Virus record (IMG/VR): IMGVR_UViG_3300031454_000242
Coordinates: 1-27,919 of that record
Source: a virus
Lineage: Duplodnaviria; Caudoviricetes
Reading direction: 5' to 3' (one strand)
DNA: 27,919 nt
The position numbers and the translations under genes are program-made. This document shows positions 19,380 to 26,272 of the stretch, in pieces (the first letter of the stretch is position 1; the number at the start of each line of letters is the position of its first letter). Below the pieces are notes generated by a model. It did no database searches. It was given only the letters and a program-made list of their open reading frames with translations, and had not been told where the DNA came from.

Positions 19380-22019
19380 TCACCAGAGCCCTCCGTCGTC
19401 GTCGTCACTGTCGATGGCGACCGGCACGGATGGTGGTGCATTGTCGCGGTCGGTGGTGGCATCGTTCTGCGCGTTCTGCGCGTTCTGCGCGGGGGGTCGG
19501 CCATCCCCTTTTGAGAGAAAAGAGAGTGAGTGATCTTCTTTTTCTCCTCTAAGCCGGGAACGCGCATAACGCGCAGAAACTGTGGATAACTCGGGGTGGA
19601 GGGCGAACTCGACCGAACGCTTGTTCCGTTGGGTCAGGACCGGCCCTCCGTCCACTGTGCGGATCCAGCCACGCTCAGTGAGCAACAGAAGTGGCGGGAG
19701 CGTGTCGTCGGCCCTCTTGAAGGCCGAACGGTTGCCGGCATAGAGCTGCCGGACGGTGAACGAGGCGTTCCCGGCACCCTCAGCCCAGTCGAGGATCTTG
19801 CGGGCCATGGCGATGTCGGGCGACGATCCCCAGAGGTCGTGGACGTGGGCAGCGTGGGTCAGCCAGTACTCGCCGACGCTGATCGCCTGGGTGATCGTGG
19901 CCATCTCGACGGGCGCATCATGGGGGTGGCCGTGGGCGACGTGGAGCAGGACGGCGAGGCGCAGCACCGACGATTCGAGCTTGCCGGTCCATTCGGCCAT
20001 GGGTCGTAGATCGCCATCGGGGAGGCGGCGCCGCTCGAGGGCCTGGCGCCAGTCCGAGTAGTGCTGGGCGGCGGGGTCGCTGAGGTGCAGGGTGGCGGGT
20101 CGTTCCCATGACAGCATGCGTCGCCCGATGGTCATCATCTGGTCGTGGTAGCGGTCGTCGCTGCCGGAGTTGGTGGCTGGCCGGAAGGCGAGGTCGCGGT
20201 GTCCGAGGACATCGGGGGGGACGGCGTACATGAATCGGGCGGTGAGGCCTCGGCCGGCCAGCTCGGGCGTGTCGGCGAGGGCCCGGATCACCGATGGCTG
20301 CACGGTGAGGACCATGGTGAGGATTGCCTCGGGTGCTTCGTTGGCTTCGCGGCCTACCCGCACGGTGTCGAGACGGTCACCGGACCATCCCTGGAGGTAG
20401 ACGTCGAGGTTGGTGCGGTCGCTGTAGCGGCCGGTCATCAACCCGAACACGCCGCCTTCGGTGGAGTGGATGGCGATGCGCCCTCCGTTGTCGGCGATCA
20501 GCTTGGCCAGCGCTTCGGGGGTGGCGTCGCCGACGGTGAGCTTCGGGGTGGCGGTGGGTTGTTCCTGAGCGGTGAACAGCTTGGCTCGGAGGTCGACGAG
20601 CTGGCGGGGGTCCGGTGAGTCGAGAGCCTTGGCCCGTTTCAGTTCGCCTTCGATGCTGTCGACGATGTCCTGGTTGGCGGCGACGGTGGCACGGGTCTGT
20701 CGTGCATGTTCGGTTTCGAGCTCGGTGACCGCTGAGCACATGGCCTTGTAGGCGGGGGATTTGCCGGTGGATGGCGGCATGGCGATGACGATGTACAGGT
20801 TGGCGTGTTCGGTCCAGCGGCCTCGCACGTTGAGTTTGAGGTGCCCAGCGCAGAGGGTGGAGAGTGCGCCGATGGCGAGGAGGGCGGGGAGGTCGACGGG
20901 GACCTGGAGGTCGACGGCGACTTCTTCGGCGTGGTCGGCGATCCAGTCGGGTAGGACGTGGGTCGGGAACGGTGGGAGCGCGATGTTGGCGCCGAGGGGG
21001 ATCGGTTCGGGCCACGGTTCGTCGGGTGCCGTCGTTGTGCCGGTGGGTGCGTCGTCTCGCAGGCTGGCCCCGATAAGGCCTTCGAGATCGGGCGACGGCG
21101 GTCCGTGGTGCCCGTCGGCTCGCAGGGCGCTGGCGGCGGCGCTGTGGTCGCCTCCGTGGCGGGTGGCGGCCAAGTAGCCGATCTTCGTGTATGTGCCTTC
21201 GGGGTCGAGGCCTGCGGGCCCGAGCGACGACGTGAACACCTTCAAGACGTCGGAGCCCTTGTAGCCGGTGGTGGCCGAGGTGCCGTCGCGTCGTTGTTTC
21301 CCGGGCCGGGTCCAGTGGTCTTCGCCAGCGCGGTCGGTGTGATGGAGGGTCCAGCCGTCTGGCTCGAGGATCTGTGCCCAGCTGGTGGCGGCGGCCCAGA
21401 TGTCACCGGGGCGGTCGCTGCGGGCCTCACCGGCGGGGTGGTTGCGGGGTGCCGGTTCGGGGTCTTGGAGCATGGTGAGCATCCAGCCGGGAGCCTGCAC
21501 GCACCGGTCAGGTGCGGCGGCTTCGACGCTGTAGGGGTGGCCGTTGGCGTGGATCGACGGGGGGGCGACGATGAACCCGCCTTCGCCTCGCACGTCGAGG
21601 CCGGGGCCGAGGCGCCCGGAGGCGCTGTTGCGAATGGTCTGGCCGTCGGTGGGCCAAGCGAACAGGATGTGACGGCCACCTGATCCGGTGAGGTGCTCGC
21701 GGGTGGCAGGGAGCGGCCCGTAGGCGGCTTCGTGTTCGGCGAGGGTGTCGTCACCGGTTTTGCCGTCGGCGACGTCGACGTCGAGGGCCCAGATCCCGGA
21801 GGCGGCACCGGTGATGATCCCGATGCCGTGGTCGGGTGCCTGGCCCCACCAGTGCCGGATCTTCGCTTCGTCGGTGGACCCCTCACGTTGCCAGGCCGGA
21901 TGGCCTTGCGGGTACTTGAGGCCGGGCGGGATCGGGATGACCCGCCAGCCTCGTCGGGCGTAGGCGAGCGCCGCGTCGAGGTTGCCGGTCGGCATCGGGT
22001 CAGGGTCAGGCATGGTCAT
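19380..22019 (-). CDS. Bifunctional DNA primase/polymerase fused to a DUF3987-like helicase domain
   Basis: ALAYARRGWRVIP, GIGIITG, ALDVD, TGSGGRH, LDVRGEGGFIVAPPSIH; C-terminal half PPSTGKS, DATPEAL, EGG, G.TARF. Confidence 0.92.
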   Translation of the reverse strand: MTMPDPDPMPTGNLDAALAYARRGWRVIPIPPGLKYPQGHPAWQREGSTDEAKIRHWWGQAPDHGIGIITGAASGIWALDVDVADGKTGDDTLAEHEAAYGPLPATREHLTGSGGRHILFAWPTDGQTIRNSASGRLGPGLDVRGEGGFIVAPPSIHANGHPYSVEAAAPDRCVQAPGWMLTMLQDPEPAPRNHPAGEARSDRPGDIWAAATSWAQILEPDGWTLHHTDRAGEDHWTRPGKQRRDGTSATTGYKGSDVLKVFTSSLGPAGLDPEGTYTKIGYLAATRHGGDHSAAASALRADGHHGPPSPDLEGLIGASLRDDAPTGTTTAPDEPWPEPIPLGANIALPPFPTHVLPDWIADHAEEVAVDLQVPVDLPALLAIGALSTLCAGHLKLNVRGRWTEHANLYIVIAMPPSTGKSPAYKAMCSAVTELETEHARQTRATVAANQDIVDSIEGELKRAKALDSPDPRQLVDLRAKLFTAQEQPTATPKLTVGDATPEALAKLIADNGGRIAIHSTEGGVFGLMTGRYSDRTNLDVYLQGWSGDRLDTVRVGREANEAPEAILTMVLTVQPSVIRALADTPELAGRGLTARFMYAVPPDVLGHRDLAFRPATNSGSDDRYHDQMMTIGRRMLSWERPATLHLSDPAAQHYSDWRQALERRRLPDGDLRPMAEWTGKLESSVLRLAVLLHVAHGHPHDAPVEMATITQAISVGEYWLTHAAHVHDLWGSSPDIAMARKILDWAEGAGNASFTVRQLYAGNRSAFKRADDTLPPLLLLTERGWIRTVDGGPVLTQRNKRSVEFALHPELSTVSARYARSRLRGEKEDHSLSFLSKGDGRPPAQNAQNAQNDATTDRDNAPPSVPVAIDSDDDDGGLW
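19463..19589. other. Putative replication origin: inverted iterons, AT-rich core, DnaA box
   Basis: 3x CGTTCTGCG (19463-19489), purine/pyrimidine tracts (about 19508-19552), three degenerate inverted copies (19554-19580), then TGTGGATAA (19581-19589). Confidence 0.65.
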
Positions 22020-22028
22020 CGGGGCGCG

Positions 22029-22059
22029 CCGATGGCGCCCGTCGAGCGGACGCCATCGG
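22029..22059 (-). terminator. Hairpin between the TasA-like gene and the primase gene
   Basis: CCGATGGCG(T)CC...GGGCGCCATCGG, 12-bp stem just upstream of the primase start. Confidence 0.35.
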
Positions 22060-22126
22060 TCGGGGAGCGGTGCGGATTACTCACGGGCGCCTCGCGGCTG
22101 GCCGGCCCCGACGTGCCCGGGTCGGT

Positions 22127-23305
22127 TCATGCGGCCGCCTTCCAGAGCTGCCGGAGCATCTCTTTGCCGAGCTTGCGGAGGGCGTCGCCTTGCTGGTGGC
22201 CGCCACTCCAAGGGGCGCCGGGCTGGGCCGGCTTTCCAGAGGGTCCGCAGCGCACGCATTCCGTGGTGTGAACGCGGTCCCATGTGGCGTAGCGGGTGTC
22301 GATGTAGAGCTGCCCGAACGGTGAGATGGCGTGCCGGTTTGTCGGCGTGAACGGGACCTTCGGGCCCGGGGTGGTCTGGCGTACTCCGGCCTTGACCAGG
22401 CACTCGGCGACGAGGTGCGTGACCATCTTGAGGTTGGGTGAGCCGAGGGCTGCGAGGTCAGCAGCGGAGGCGCCCTTCTGTGCCCGTCCGGGGCGACCGT
22501 GGCCGCAGTACTGCCAGAGCTGCGAGACGGTGCGGGCGTAGGGTTCGTCGGCTACGAGGACCCGCTTGGAACCAGTGCCTTCCCAGTGGTGCGGGGTGGC
22601 GATCCGGGGGCGGCCGAGGTGGCCGATGAGACGGGCCATGAGCGGTTCGCCGAGTCCGCGACTGGTCTTCTGCCAGGTGCGGATCTCGGTGGGGACGACA
22701 CGCCGGTAGCAGAGGGCGAGTTGGCGGCCGACGACCTTCTCGGAGGTCTCTAGAGCGTCGATGTACGGCTGGTAGACGGCGGGGTCGACACCGCCGCGCT
22801 TGGCCCGGTTGTCAGCGGCGATCCGGGCCTGTTGGGCGTCGTGGAACATCTCGGCCCATATGCGAAGTTCGAGCCACCCGTCGTGACTGGAAGGGGTGTC
22901 GGGGGTCGCTTGGACGGGCGGCTCGAGAAGGTTCGACCCCGGCGCGGTTGCTGTGGGTGTCGCGGTAGCAATGGCTGGGGTCGAGAGGGTGCTGAGGTCG
23001 GCGGTCCCACATTGGGTGTCGCGCCGCGTATGGCCGACCTCAGCGGAAAGATCACCCGGACCAGACGGGTCACGTAGGGGCGCCGCGACTTCGGTGGTCT
23101 GGTCCGGGTGAGAAGTGTCGACCCCGGCGGCCGAAGCATGGGAATCGCGGTCCACTTGGCCGGGGTCGAGAGGGTCCACCACCAGCGGACCAACTCGGGG
23201 CGCCGTGGGTTCATTGGCTGGTGGTGGAGAAGGCGACTCACCGACGCGGGTCATCTGGGTGTCGTGATCTGCTTGGTCGGTGGGTCGGGTCAGGGTGGCG
23301 GTCAT
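22127..23305 (-). CDS. tasA: Nop/IS110-like RNA-binding protein without a nuclease domain (TasA-like)
   Basis: The last ~250 aa contain a coiled coil (ELRIWAEMFHDAQQARIAADNR...LETSEKVVGRQL), GLGEPLMARLIG, TVSQLWQYCG and terminal GHQQGDALRKLGKEMLRQLW. No RuvC/DEDD or HNH motif seen. The first ~145 codons are the guide array. Confidence 0.82.
   Translation of the reverse strand: MTATLTRPTDQADHDTQMTRVGESPSPPPANEPTAPRVGPLVVDPLDPGQVDRDSHASAAGVDTSHPDQTTEVAAPLRDPSGPGDLSAEVGHTRRDTQCGTADLSTLSTPAIATATPTATAPGSNLLEPPVQATPDTPSSHDGWLELRIWAEMFHDAQQARIAADNRAKRGGVDPAVYQPYIDALETSEKVVGRQLALCYRRVVPTEIRTWQKTSRGLGEPLMARLIGHLGRPRIATPHHWEGTGSKRVLVADEPYARTVSQLWQYCGHGRPGRAQKGASAADLAALGSPNLKMVTHLVAECLVKAGVRQTTPGPKVPFTPTNRHAISPFGQLYIDTRYATWDRVHTTECVRCGPSGKPAQPGAPWSGGHQQGDALRKLGKEMLRQLWKAAA
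22869..23287 (-). ncRNA. Stem-loop TIGR-like guide RNA array, 7 units
   Basis: Units at 23234-23287, 23175-23228, 23118-23169, 23052-23111, 22991-23044, 22933-22984 and 22869-22926. Each is a 10-14 bp stem + CCA + 9 nt + CG(A/G)NNCCC(A/C) + 9 nt + CG + stem, separated by 5-7 nt pyrimidine-rich linkers. Confidence 0.9.
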
Positions 23306-23751
23306 GCTGCGACCGCCAGGACATCGTTGAGACAGGAGACGCCGGCCGCTTCGATGATGTCGATCGCTTCGGCGTGGCGGGCGATCGTGTTGTCGATGCC
23401 GTTGCGGAGCGACGCAAGGAAGGCGATGCGGTCCCGGTGGTCTTGCACGGTGGCTTCACCCCAGACGACGTGCTTACCGCGTCCGATGCAGAACCGGTCG
23501 GCCAGGTACTCGGCGCGGTTGATTCCCCCAGCGACGCGTCGCTCTTGGGTATCGGAGGTTCCATGGTCGCTGGGGGAGTTCTCGTGGGCCCGCACGTCAG
23601 ACCGGATGGACCGTCGGCACTCGTTGCGGACCAGCGGACCGAACATGTCCCGCCACTTCTGCGGGCAGCCCAGAGCGTCGAACACCGCCGATGCGGTCTC
23701 GTCCGGGTCACCGTTGGACATCTGGTCGATCAGCTCGTTCAGGTTCGGCAT
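23302..23751 (-). CDS. Hypothetical protein coupled to the TasA-like gene and carrying an embedded guide unit
   Basis: 149 aa; GAGGAG RBS; ATGA overlap with 22127-23305. Confidence 0.78.
   Translation of the reverse strand: MPNLNELIDQMSNGDPDETASAVFDALGCPQKWRDMFGPLVRNECRRSIRSDVRAHENSPSDHGTSDTQERRVAGGINRAEYLADRFCIGRGKHVVWGEATVQDHRDRIAFLASLRNGIDNTIARHAEAIDIIEAAGVSCLNDVLAVAA
23524..23577 (-). ncRNA. Solo TIGR-like unit inside a CDS
   Basis: TCCCCCAGCGA-CCA-TGGAACCTC-CGATACCCA-AGAGCGACG-CG-TCGCTGGGGGA: perfect 11-bp stem with identical architecture. Confidence 0.85.
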
Positions 23752-23921
23752 CAGTTGCTCCTCGGGTTGGGATGAGGCAGTGGGGTGGTGGGTGGCCCGG
23801 TCGGGTGCATGCGGTCATGGATGCTCCTGGGGTGGGTGGCCCGGCCGACGGTCCTGGGAGTCGTCGGCCGGGCCGGTTCCGGTCGGGCCAGGGGACGGTC
23901 CGACCGGAGAACGGTGGCGGG

Positions 23922-24464
23922 CTACAGGTCGTCGAAGAGGTCGTCGCTGCTGGCCGCCGTGGCCGGAGCCGGAGCCGTGGGCGGAACGGGTGCCGGCGTG
24001 GGTGCGTCGGCGAGGAGGTCCCCGGTGTCGAGAGCCGGCGCCTTGTACGCCATCTCGTAGAGCTTCGGCGGGTTGAAGCCCCGCTTCGAGGCCGTGCCGT
24101 CGCCCACGTAGCGGACGGCGAGGATGCCGCCGACTTCGAGGCTGGTCGCCTTCGCTGCCTTGAGGGCACCGATGAGCGAGGCGGTGAGCGACTGCGTCTC
24201 GGGCTTCTTCGAGCCCTTCACGTACAGGTTCCGGACCCCGTCATCGTCATCGTCCTCGCGTTCACCGGTTTGCAGGGTGACGACGAGCTGCATCTTCGGC
24301 TTGCCGTCGTCCCAGAAAGCGGGCTTGTCGGTGTCCATGTCGATCTGCTGGCGCGTTTCGGCGGCGACGACGGTGCCTTTGATCTTGTCGCCGATGGTCT
24401 CGAACTTGGCTGATCGGCCGCCGCCTCCGGTGAGGAAGTCGGCGACGCTGGTGTCGATGCTCAT
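23922..24464 (-). CDS. Putative single-stranded DNA-binding protein
   Basis: Start at ATG 24464 after AGGAG. SAKFETIGD...G...WDDGKPKMQLVVTLQT; Pro/Ala linker and acidic tail DDLFDDL; follows the exonuclease. Confidence 0.65.
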   Translation of the reverse strand: MSIDTSVADFLTGGGGRSAKFETIGDKIKGTVVAAETRQQIDMDTDKPAFWDDGKPKMQLVVTLQTGEREDDDDDGVRNLYVKGSKKPETQSLTASLIGALKAAKATSLEVGGILAVRYVGDGTASKRGFNPPKLYEMAYKAPALDTGDLLADAPTPAPVPPTAPAPATAASSDDLFDDL

Positions 24465-24502
24465 GGTGTTGGTGTGCTCCTGTGTGTTGGTGGGTTGGGG
24501 GG

Positions 24503-26272
24503 TCACTGCGCGGCAGCGTCGAGCTGGGCGTAGTGGGTGGTGAGGCGGTCGCCGATGACGGCGCACACCTCTTCGTCGCCTGCGGCGAACCGCATGGCGA
24601 GACTGATGACGTTCTGCGCTTCGTCGATGGTGAGCGATCCGAGGACCGCCCCGGTCGACCAGGCGGGCTGCAGGTCGAGACCGATGGCGAGGCCGATGGC
24701 GGCTCGTGTGGCGGTGTCGTCGCCGGGGTCCACGTCATCGGCACAGACCAGGGCGCAGGCGATGGCGGCTGCGTTGACGGCGGCGACACGGCGGGTGGAC
24801 TTGGCCGTGTAGCGCCACGGCCGGCCTCCCCGCTTCCCTTCGGCCTCCCAGCCCTTGAGGATCGTTTTCTGTTCGGCGGTCATGGCGGCAACCGAGGCCC
24901 GCAGGTCGGTGTCTTGGGTTTTGGTGGCTTTGGCGCTGTCGTCGTCGATCGGGCGCAGGGTCGGGTTGGAAGCGATCTCGGCGTCGATCTCGGCGGTGCG
25001 GGCCGCCATCGCCTCGGAGAGCTTTTCGTCGGGGGATGGCTTCGTCGGGTCAGGCGGCGGGAACCCGATGCCGTCCAGGACCTCGACCTGGCAGAGCAGG
25101 GCATCGAGGACGTCGATGTCGGCGTCAGCCCACTGGTCGGAGTGGGCCGGCTTGGCTACGGCGGGAGGCCAGAACTTGGCGATGGCCTCCCGGCCCTTCG
25201 GGTCGCTGCAGTCCCGGATCGCCTTGAGGCGATCCTTGATCCATGCCACCCGCTGCGCAGCGACACCGATGGGCCGGACGGCGGGGGCGGGCGGCGCCGA
25301 GTCTTCGAACACGGGCAGGGTGCGAGCGGCGTAGAGCTTCGGTTTCGATCCCTCCCGCCACGGCTTCCATTCGGCGAACACCGCGCCGTCGTGGCGGGCG
25401 TTGCGGGCCCCGCCCAACGTCTCGACGATCGCTGTGGTCGCCCCGATCTCCTCAGCCTCCGCGGCCTTGCGGGCGGCGATGGCGGTCACGTAGCGGCGCA
25501 CCATCGCCTCCTCAACATCGACGCCTGCCTCGTCATCGACGAGCCCGTACACCTCCTGCTGCGCTTCGAGCGTCTTCGGGTGATCGTCGGGCGCCGGGCA
25601 GTCGTCGGAGTCGAGCCGGTGCAAGAAGGTGTCGGCAGCGTCGATGAGCTCGGCGACGTGGGTCGGGTCGTAGTCGATGACGTACTCGGCGTGCTCGAAC
25701 CATGGGAACTCGACAGCGACGTGGCAGCGCGACGCCCCGGCGCAGTGCATCTGCCACATGACCTGGTCCCGGTAGCCGGCAGGGATGGCATCGGTGCCGG
25801 GCTGGCCCCACTGTTCGGGCTTGCGGGTCGTCTTGATCTCAAGGAGGTCGAAGCAGTCGTGTTCGGGCTTGGCGATGAGTCGGTCGGGGGCGGCGCAGTG
25901 TCGGTCGTTGCCGGCGGCCACAAAGGTGCCGCAGGGCCGGACGGTCCAGTCGGGGTGGCGGTCGCGAAACCATGAGGCGATGCCGGGTTCGTGGTAGATC
26001 CCGGCGGCCTTCACGTCGTCGATGCCGTCGGGCTCGACGTGGCCCTTCATGACTCGGTACAGCCGGTACGGGGAGTCCCATGGGCTGCGGCCGACGATGG
26101 CGGCGATCTTCGATGCGGAGACGGTGCGGTACCAAGCGTCGGAGCCGGGTTCGGTGAGCGGGATCTCGGTGCCGGCGGGGAGGCCGTGGTCGGTGCGGGC
26201 CGGCGGTTCGACAGGGACCCGGCTGTTGGTGACCGGCGGAGCGAGGAAGGCGTCTACGTCGGTGGCGGTCAC
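24503..26272 (-). CDS. YqaJ/lambda-exonuclease-like recombination nuclease with a long C-terminal extension
   Basis: PGSDAW...SASKIAAIVGRSPW, APD, LLEIKT, Y..QV.WQM motifs; start re-called at GTG 26272 (GTGA overlap). Confidence 0.88.
   Translation of the reverse strand: MTATDVDAFLAPPVTNSRVPVEPPARTDHGLPAGTEIPLTEPGSDAWYRTVSASKIAAIVGRSPWDSPYRLYRVMKGHVEPDGIDDVKAAGIYHEPGIASWFRDRHPDWTVRPCGTFVAAGNDRHCAAPDRLIAKPEHDCFDLLEIKTTRKPEQWGQPGTDAIPAGYRDQVMWQMHCAGASRCHVAVEFPWFEHAEYVIDYDPTHVAELIDAADTFLHRLDSDDCPAPDDHPKTLEAQQEVYGLVDDEAGVDVEEAMVRRYVTAIAARKAAEAEEIGATTAIVETLGGARNARHDGAVFAEWKPWREGSKPKLYAARTLPVFEDSAPPAPAVRPIGVAAQRVAWIKDRLKAIRDCSDPKGREAIAKFWPPAVAKPAHSDQWADADIDVLDALLCQVEVLDGIGFPPPDPTKPSPDEKLSEAMAARTAEIDAEIASNPTLRPIDDDSAKATKTQDTDLRASVAAMTAEQKTILKGWEAEGKRGGRPWRYTAKSTRRVAAVNAAAIACALVCADDVDPGDDTATRAAIGLAIGLDLQPAWSTGAVLGSLTIDEAQNVISLAMRFAAGDEEVCAVIGDRLTTHYAQLDAAAQ

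What the first reader, a model, noticed from the sequence alone, without database searches (positions are those of the whole stretch)
23524..23577. Solo guide unit inserted in-frame in the middle of the upstream gene
SEEN: an eighth perfect unit (11-bp stem, CCA-TGGAACCTC-CGATACCCA-AGAGCGACG-CG) lies about 240 nt upstream of the array, inside CDS 23302-23751. It is 54 nt (18 codons, around SPSDHGTSDTQERRVAGG) and sits between two helical-looking segments. INFERRED: guide units can disperse into coding sequence as frame-preserving insertions, which may bear on how units are acquired and may put this mRNA under Tas-dependent processing.
Basis: partly seen in the sequence, partly recalled or inferred. 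Interest (0 to 1): 0.8.

Follow-up and report, generated by a model that had tools for sequence, protein, structure and literature searches.

The report
Guide RNA nested inside partner gene
A phage gene that sits just before an RNA-guided DNA-binding gene (TIGR-TasA) carries a guide-RNA hairpin inside the stretch coding for its predicted floppy loop; relatives keep the hairpin there while its two targeting segments differ, so the same DNA likely serves as both protein code and a working, re-programmed guide.

Summary
The unit is real: 54 nt, 11-bp perfect stem, two 9-nt spacers, exactly codons 59-76 of the 149-aa gene, in a predicted disordered loop. The downstream protein has the Tas fold without a nuclease (TasA).

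It is not an 18-codon insertion: homologues without a unit have a linker of the same length. It is an inherited feature. Fourteen of 68 homologue groups carry a unit in this linker, the stems covary at 11 of 11 pairs, and relatives 97% identical elsewhere share only 4 of 18 spacer bases, as their array units do. The host gene is a conserved tas partner (103 of 126 tas loci, 75 with a coupled start), also present in cultured phages.

Best reading: a working guide cut from the shared mRNA and loaded on TasA, its spacers rewritten in place. Expression, Tas binding and target are untested; the unit lacks the reported CUU processing motif. Guides inside tas itself are published; I found none reported in a non-tas gene. 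This scan noted the same arrangement earlier on other DNA (e1-6123029, e1-6183994).

The parts
23524..23577 (-). Embedded TIGR stem-loop unit (54 nt), codons 59-76 of the partner gene
23567..23577 (-). 5' stem arm (11 nt)
   Evidence: 11 of 11 Watson-Crick pairs with 23524-23534
23555..23563 (-). Spacer A (9 nt), between box C (23564-23566) and box D (23553-23554)
23537..23545 (-). Spacer B (9 nt), between second box C (23546-23548) and box D (23535-23536)
23524..23534 (-). 3' stem arm (11 nt)
23302..23751 (-). Partner gene, 149 aa, unknown function; conserved upstream of tas; stop overlaps the tas ATG (ATGA)
23758..23763 (-). Shine-Dalgarno-like GAGGAG, 6 nt before the partner ATG
   Evidence: read
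22869..23287 (-). Seven-unit stem-loop TIGR array, inside the 5' part of the open tas frame
22127..23305 (-). tasA ORF (392 aa from the coupled ATG; folded coiled-coil/Nop core about 22130-22870; no nuclease domain in the model)

Best explanation
A TIGR stem-loop unit is written, in frame, into the predicted disordered linker of a conserved gene that sits just before tasA, and it is likely a working guide RNA that would be cut out of the shared mRNA and loaded on TasA to bind, not cut, an 18-bp DNA target. SHOWN here: unit anatomy; Tas fold without nuclease; the partner gene is conserved and usually start-stop coupled to tas; the unit sits at the same linker in many homologues, in two reading frames; stems covary; spacers differ completely between near-identical relatives; linker length is unchanged. 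FROM PAPERS: stem-loop units, including ones inside tas coding sequence, are processed and recovered with TasA, and TasA represses transcription (Xu et al. preprint). INFERRED: a unit took over this tolerant loop in an ancestor of the lineage (one gain, one loss in the near clade; probably further gains in a distant subfamily); the same unknown process that rewrites array spacers in place also rewrites these, limited only by the need to avoid stop codons; releasing the guide must cut the partner message mid-gene and, through the ATGA coupling, would lower tasA translation, a possible negative feedback.
For: Covariation: 92.3% of cells paired, 11 of 11 pairs with changes on both sides, 0 of 500 shuffles reach the paired fraction, slid controls 34-47% (13 sequences). 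Ranking by box motifs alone, without any stem filter, gives 10 of 39 groups at 0-1 mismatches and the other 29 at 2 or more. L048 vs L050: rest of CDS 414 of 429 identical, stem arms 22 of 22, spacers 4 of 18; their four orthologous array units show spacers 3-6 of 18 and stems 20 of 20. In 3 of 4 multi-member protein clusters one member differs at 5 of 6 spacer-coded residues but only 3-7 of 143-146 others. Amino-acid signature in the linker of 16 of 152 family proteins, against a mean of 0.24 (max 3) in 500 shuffles and 1 of 152 outside the linker. The gene is a real gene: third-position bias such as 9/7/28, ten residues at least 90% conserved plus two invariant in 142 proteins. Tas: Foldseek top hits 9MTY (E 4e-6, TM 0.62) and TasH entries. 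Partner in 103 of 126 tas loci, 75 with a coupled in-frame start, 67 as a 4-base overlap.
Against: No expression or binding data for this unit. The CUU motif that Xu et al. place at processing boundaries is missing here: CTT lies just 3' of the stem in 2 of 13 embedded units and 5' in 0 of 13, against 28 and 24 of 70 array units. No target found. The unit is dispensable: 54 of 68 partner groups lack it, including L047 inside the unit clade, and L045 has a decayed second box. L003 vs L048 share 12 of 18 spacer bases, which fits gradual drift in that pair. Several embedded stems have only 6 uninterrupted pairs. Rows are related and were picked with a motif-plus-stem scan. Tree supports are below the starred level.
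Confidence: 0.74

Rival explanations
1. Passenger unit: the hairpin is kept and its spacers scrambled by recombination or conversion with array units, or by whatever rewrites them, but it is not released as a guide because ribosomes cover it and it lacks the processing motif.
For: CUU depleted beside embedded units; lost or decayed in some relatives; whole and half spacers recur within arrays, for example one spacer A three times in L004.
Against: None of 26 embedded half-spacers matches, within 1 mismatch, an array half-spacer of its own locus. Embedded stems are locus-specific yet covary at 11 of 11 pairs across proteins 37-53% identical to the window's, which needs long-term selection on the RNA.
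Confidence: 0.12
2. Operator-like site: the unit matters as a TasA-binding hairpin on the partner-tasA mRNA (feedback on translation or mRNA decay), and its spacers are free to drift because they have no target.
For: Position inside a gene translationally coupled to tas; boxes and stem conserved, spacers not; no target found.
Against: Spacers are not drifting at background rate: 4 of 18 identical where the rest is 96.5% identical (binomial about 1e-17 if sites were independent), the same pattern as array guides. Both roles can coexist.
Confidence: 0.1
3. Recent, frame-preserving 54-nt insertion of a mobile unit into an unrelated gene.
For: 54 nt is a multiple of three and the unit fills a loop; the L003 group has a linker about 12 aa longer and uses another frame, and three distant homologues carry a unit, so gains at this loop probably do recur.
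Against: No 18-aa indel against homologues; 11 of 12 groups in the window's clade carry the unit; the gene is a standing tas partner.
Confidence: 0.03
4. Chance hairpin in GC-rich coding sequence.
For: The bare core motif occurs by chance about 0.19 times per shuffled window.
Against: Core plus stem: 0 in 1000 shuffles; same site and covariation in homologues.
Confidence: 0.01

Closest known systems
Intragenic stem-loop tigRNAs inside tas, e.g. Bifidobacterium longum TasA (Xu et al., bioRxiv 10.64898/2026.09.09.750476; read parts 1-4 and 6 of 7)
   Same: [quoted passage not shown]
   Different: This unit lies in a different gene, not tas; it is single, about 240 nt from the array, and lacks the CUU motif. 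The text I read describes intragenic units only within tas.
Stem-loop TIGR-TasA of the Peromyscus leucopus gut contig (Faure et al. 2025, PMC12045711; passages and section 6)
   Same: [quoted passage not shown]
   Different: Subarrays there are described as separated by a ~450-nt intergenic region; here a 450-nt conserved gene carries a unit. Whether that region holds a partner homologue was not tested.
tasParB-tasA operons (Faure et al. 2025, passages)
   Same: A conserved second gene in an operon with tasA, arrays between or around the two.
   Different: Those have dual-repeat arrays and a ParB-like partner; this partner has no Pfam, NCBIfam or clear fold match and the arrays are stem-loop.
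'IS110-like' element of mycobacteriophage Omega (gp21) and A1 phages such as Bethlehem (Pope et al. 2013, PMC3706429; passages)
   Same: These loci are distant relatives of this cassette: partner homologue (Omega gp22, Bethlehem gp73), Tas homologue and stem-loop units.
   Different: None of the 8 cultured-phage loci examined has a unit in the partner linker; the paper treats gp21 as a transposase.

Membership tests
TIGR stem-loop unit (sequence definition, TIGRFinder criteria as read) | Two box C - 9 nt - box D intervals at most 15 nt apart | tested here: met
   CCA-N9-CG twice, 4 nt apart, no mismatch
TIGR stem-loop unit (sequence definition) | Flanking palindromic stem of at least 5 bp | tested here: met
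   11 Watson-Crick pairs; covariation in homologues
TIGR stem-loop unit (sequence definition) | Neighbouring Nop-domain Tas gene | tested here: met
   Foldseek 9MTY E 4e-6, TasH entries E 1e-5 to 1e-4
TIGR stem-loop unit (sequence definition) | Spacers variable, scaffold conserved | tested here: met
Mature, processed stem-loop tigRNA | CUU at the stem base (reported as frequent at processing boundaries, not part of the unit definition) | tested here: not met
   absent beside the window unit; 2 of 13 embedded vs 28 of 70 array units on the 3' side
Mature, processed stem-loop tigRNA | Released as a discrete RNA and bound by Tas | not testable with these tools
   needs RNP pull-down and small-RNA sequencing
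Mature, processed stem-loop tigRNA | Guides to an 18-bp target, one spacer per strand | tested here: inconclusive
   no credible match in the window, fetched loci or viral contigs; host DNA not available
Intragenic tigRNA within tas (BlTasA type) | Lies inside the tas coding sequence | tested here: not met
   lies in the separate upstream ORF, which ends at 23302
Intragenic tigRNA within tas (BlTasA type) | In frame, in a disordered region between structure elements | tested here: met
TasA | Coiled coil plus Nop domain, no N-terminal RuvC or HNH | tested here: met
   model of the 240-aa core starts with the coiled coil; the N-terminal extension is array-coded; fold hits
TasA | NCBIfam TIGR_Tas_endo above curated cut-off | tested here: inconclusive
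   E 1.1e-24, 87.6 bits, cut-off 100
tasParB partner | ParB-like domain in the partner gene | tested here: inconclusive
   not listed; an unlisted family is not excluded
tasParB partner | Dual-repeat arrays | tested here: not met
   arrays here are stem-loop
Frame-preserving 18-codon insertion | About 18-aa indel against homologues | tested here: not met

The most novel reading that the evidence does not exclude
This branch of stem-loop TIGR-TasA is a two-protein system. The overlooked partner binds TasA and takes part in guide maturation or in rewriting spacers in place, and the guide nested in its own message closes a feedback loop. Spacers are acquired by overwriting the two 9-nt slots of a fixed scaffold, even inside a protein-coding gene, not by adding units.
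Probability: 0.22. Interest if true: 0.86.

Novelty: new variant of a known kind. Interest (0 to 1): 0.64.

Why it matters
Both main TIGR papers name spacer acquisition as unknown and report no adaptation protein. A unit fixed inside a protein-coding gene gives a reference frame: flanking codons date the divergence, and they show the scaffold staying put while 18 spacer bases change wholesale. That argues for in-place rewriting and makes it testable. It also extends guide-in-gene overlap from tas to a second gene, and points to a conserved partner protein of unknown fold that is present in cultured phages of Mycobacterium smegmatis and Gordonia terrae, where it can be deleted and assayed. If the unit proves inert, the finding shrinks to a curiosity of a known family.

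Tried and rejected
Target search: the solo unit has no match with 3 or fewer mismatches in the window in either joining order. 427 distinct units against 574,804 bp of loci gave 18 and 10 hits at 2 or fewer mismatches for the two orders and 8 for a reversed control, none exact. Exact scans of viral contigs gave 0 and 1 matches; the one (L129) lies in a 39-50% GC contig with no visible link and is taken as chance. The paper passages read did not state the joining order. The longer record L036 could not be searched, so host targets are untested. RNA runs: no RNA holder listed. Partner function: no Pfam, NCBIfam or PDB fold match (best Z 4.8), no usable Atlas hit, unnamed phrog_4604 in 8 of 142 members; a blank does not show a new fold. 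Partner-first searches, to ask whether it occurs without tas, failed or found nothing new: no confirmed loci; could not run; one search found only the seed genome among 401. That question is open. No sigma-70 promoter or terminator match at 21900-24600; no Rfam match. Omega's 10 units do not match the empty site in Courthouse (best 4 mismatches). Rows P0279 and P0285 were dropped from the cluster count because my end-anchored comparison put them out of register.

Full report
OBSERVATION. The window looks like an actinobacterial prophage region (WhiB, Prim-Pol, YqaJ, HTH repressor). On the - strand, 23577-23524 is a 54-nt hairpin: 11 Watson-Crick pairs around CCA-N9-CG-N4-CCA-N9-CG. It occupies codons 59-76 of the 149-aa ORF 23302-23751. 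Seven similar units follow about 240 nt downstream. Core plus a stem of 6 bp or more appears 4 times in the window and never in 1000 shuffles. No other stem-bearing unit was found elsewhere in the window.

THE SYSTEM. The 240-aa core of the downstream ORF folds confidently (pLDDT 93.2) and matches TasR 9MTY (E 4e-6, TM 0.62) and TasH structures; NCBIfam TIGR_Tas_endo scores E 1.1e-24 but under its cut-off. No nuclease domain precedes the coiled coil, so it is TasA. Its frame is open from an ATG that overlaps the upstream gene's stop, straight through the array.

NOT AN 18-CODON INSERTION. The two homologues found first have a linker as long or longer. A profile search found 1406 family representatives, of which the best 150 were listed. 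In the 152 proteins aligned, the R50-L83 segment is 34 aa in the window, median 34.5 in 136 without the unit's amino-acid signature and 36.5 in 16 with it. Among loci, nine unit-bearing groups have 30-34 aa, one has 45, and unit-less groups 27-45. The unit has replaced the loop, not lengthened it. AlphaFold2 shows that loop as coil between helices 31-58 and 79-84.

AN INHERITED, COVARYING UNIT. I fetched 118 tas loci; they include duplicates, and L036 is identical to the window. A first profile found the upstream gene in 70 of 119 sequences, 39 groups at 80% identity. Ten groups have the box motifs in the linker at 0-1 mismatches, the other 29 at 2 or more, judged without a stem filter. Thirteen distinct embedded units align without gaps; 92.3% of stem cells pair, all 11 pairs show changes on both sides, shuffles average 55.7% and slid controls 34-47%. 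These rows are related and were picked partly on stems, so the shuffle count is not a probability. Two reading frames are used. With a second-round profile, 14 of 68 groups carry the unit (L021 added by hand, as a weak homologue): 11 of 12 in the window's clade (SH-aLRT 90) and three scattered in a distant subfamily; the label needs 5 changes against 12.9 for shuffles, and a single origin is not ruled out (an earlier 42-row tree gave 2 changes).

SPACERS CHANGE IN PLACE. L048 and L050 are identical at 414 of 429 bases outside the unit and 22 of 22 stem bases, but at 4 of 18 spacer bases. Their orthologous array units behave alike: stems 20 of 20, spacers 3-6 of 18. L040, L042 and L043 share stems 22 of 22 and spacers 6-8 of 18. 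Independently, in 3 of 4 protein clusters with several members, one member differs at 5 of 6 spacer-coded residues and only 3-7 of 143-146 others; remaining members differ at 0-1 (two rows dropped as out of register). One pair, L003 and L048, shares 12 of 18, which looks like drift. No embedded half-spacer has a near copy in its own array.

THE HOST GENE IS A TAS PARTNER. It is a real gene: GAGGAG before the ATG, third-position bias, conserved residues. The second profile finds it at 103 of 126 tas loci; of the 23 misses, 19 have 634 nt or less upstream of the tas match and 4 have about 3 kb. Seventy-five of 103 have an in-frame start at the partner's stop that reads open into tas, 67 as a 4-base overlap. 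Cultured phages carry the pair with stem-loop units: Bethlehem gp73/gp72, Omega gp22/gp21, Spooky gp49/gp50, LonelyBoi gp45/gp46; none of 8 such loci has a linker unit. All loci were found through tas, so whether the partner occurs alone is open. Complex prediction gave weak support: score 0.52, best of 3 controls 0.00, runs 0.53, 0.00, 0.52, agreeing in at least 2% of contacts, partner pLDDT at least 60. The mark was reached by 116 of 157 solved complexes and 2 of 215 mismatches, but at 0.60 or under by only 18 of the 157 and by both mismatches. I treat binding as a lead.

MECHANISM. Most likely the partner-tasA message is a guide precursor as well as an mRNA. Xu et al. report units inside tas coding sequence, in disordered regions, processed and recovered with BlTasA, and repression by TasA without cleavage. 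By extension the embedded unit would be excised, loaded on a TasA dimer and used against an 18-bp site. Excision must destroy that copy of the partner message and would uncouple tasA translation, which suggests feedback; this is inference. Against it: the CUU processing motif is depleted beside embedded units (2 and 0 of 13, against 28 and 24 of 70 array units), most partners lack the unit, and no target was found.

WHAT IS KNOWN. Xu et al. preprint: parts 1-4 and 6 of 7 plus passages; supplements closed. Faure et al.: passages, section 6 and a term search of 4 supplementary files with no hits; they name only a ParB-like partner and call adaptation an enigma. Passages only: 10.64898/2026.08.11.744272, 10.64898/2026.07.30.739390, 10.64898/2026.07.15.738680, 10.64898/2026.09.22.753630, PMC3706429. 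Four library searches showed no report of a unit in a non-tas gene or of this partner family; TIGRFinder's unreleased tables may well list such units unremarked. Earlier notes of this scan describe the same arrangement in other genomes; I had reached and recorded this reading before seeing them and count them as leads, not support.

VERDICT. Real feature; a new variant of a known kind. Interest 0.64.

Noticed in passing
window 23838-23874 (-): A 13-bp perfect hairpin upstream of the partner gene whose 11-nt loop resembles the central box D-loop-box C part of a unit with the spacers missing; a collapsed unit or a plain regulatory hairpin.
   Followed up: no
window 22869-22881 (-): The 3' stem arm of the last array unit encodes the conserved DGWLE start of the Tas core, so TasA translation has to run through at least that unit.
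   Followed up: partly
L121:414-2585 (phage Omega): A 2.17-kb block with the partner, tas and 9 of 10 units is missing from 14 other cluster J records; the junctions show a 26-bp imperfect direct repeat, and an orphan unit with other spacers remains in Courthouse (L128:759). Published as an IS110-like insertion; loss by deletion fits too.
   Followed up: partly
L119-L126: 88 phage records (83 Mycobacterium) encode a Tas homologue annotated as transposase or hypothetical; the loci examined carry stem-loop units and the partner gene, a ready experimental system.
   Followed up: partly
L037:2703-2734 (- strand): One unit is inverted relative to the rest, between the partner stop and the first array unit.
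   Followed up: no
P0167: A partner homologue with two unit signatures in a 51-aa linker, suggesting units can duplicate inside the gene; DNA not seen.
   Followed up: no
L004:2631-2839; L050:2573 vs L051:78: The same spacer A recurs with different spacer B partners, so the two halves can be exchanged independently.
   Followed up: no
L096: The partner frame runs on through two units without a stop, followed by only the 3' end of tas in another frame; a deleted cassette or assembly error.
   Followed up: no
L005, L008, L010, L113, L121: Arrays also lie upstream of the partner gene, so the gene splits the array into subarrays about 450 nt apart, the spacing Faure et al. call intergenic in the Peromyscus locus.
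   Followed up: no
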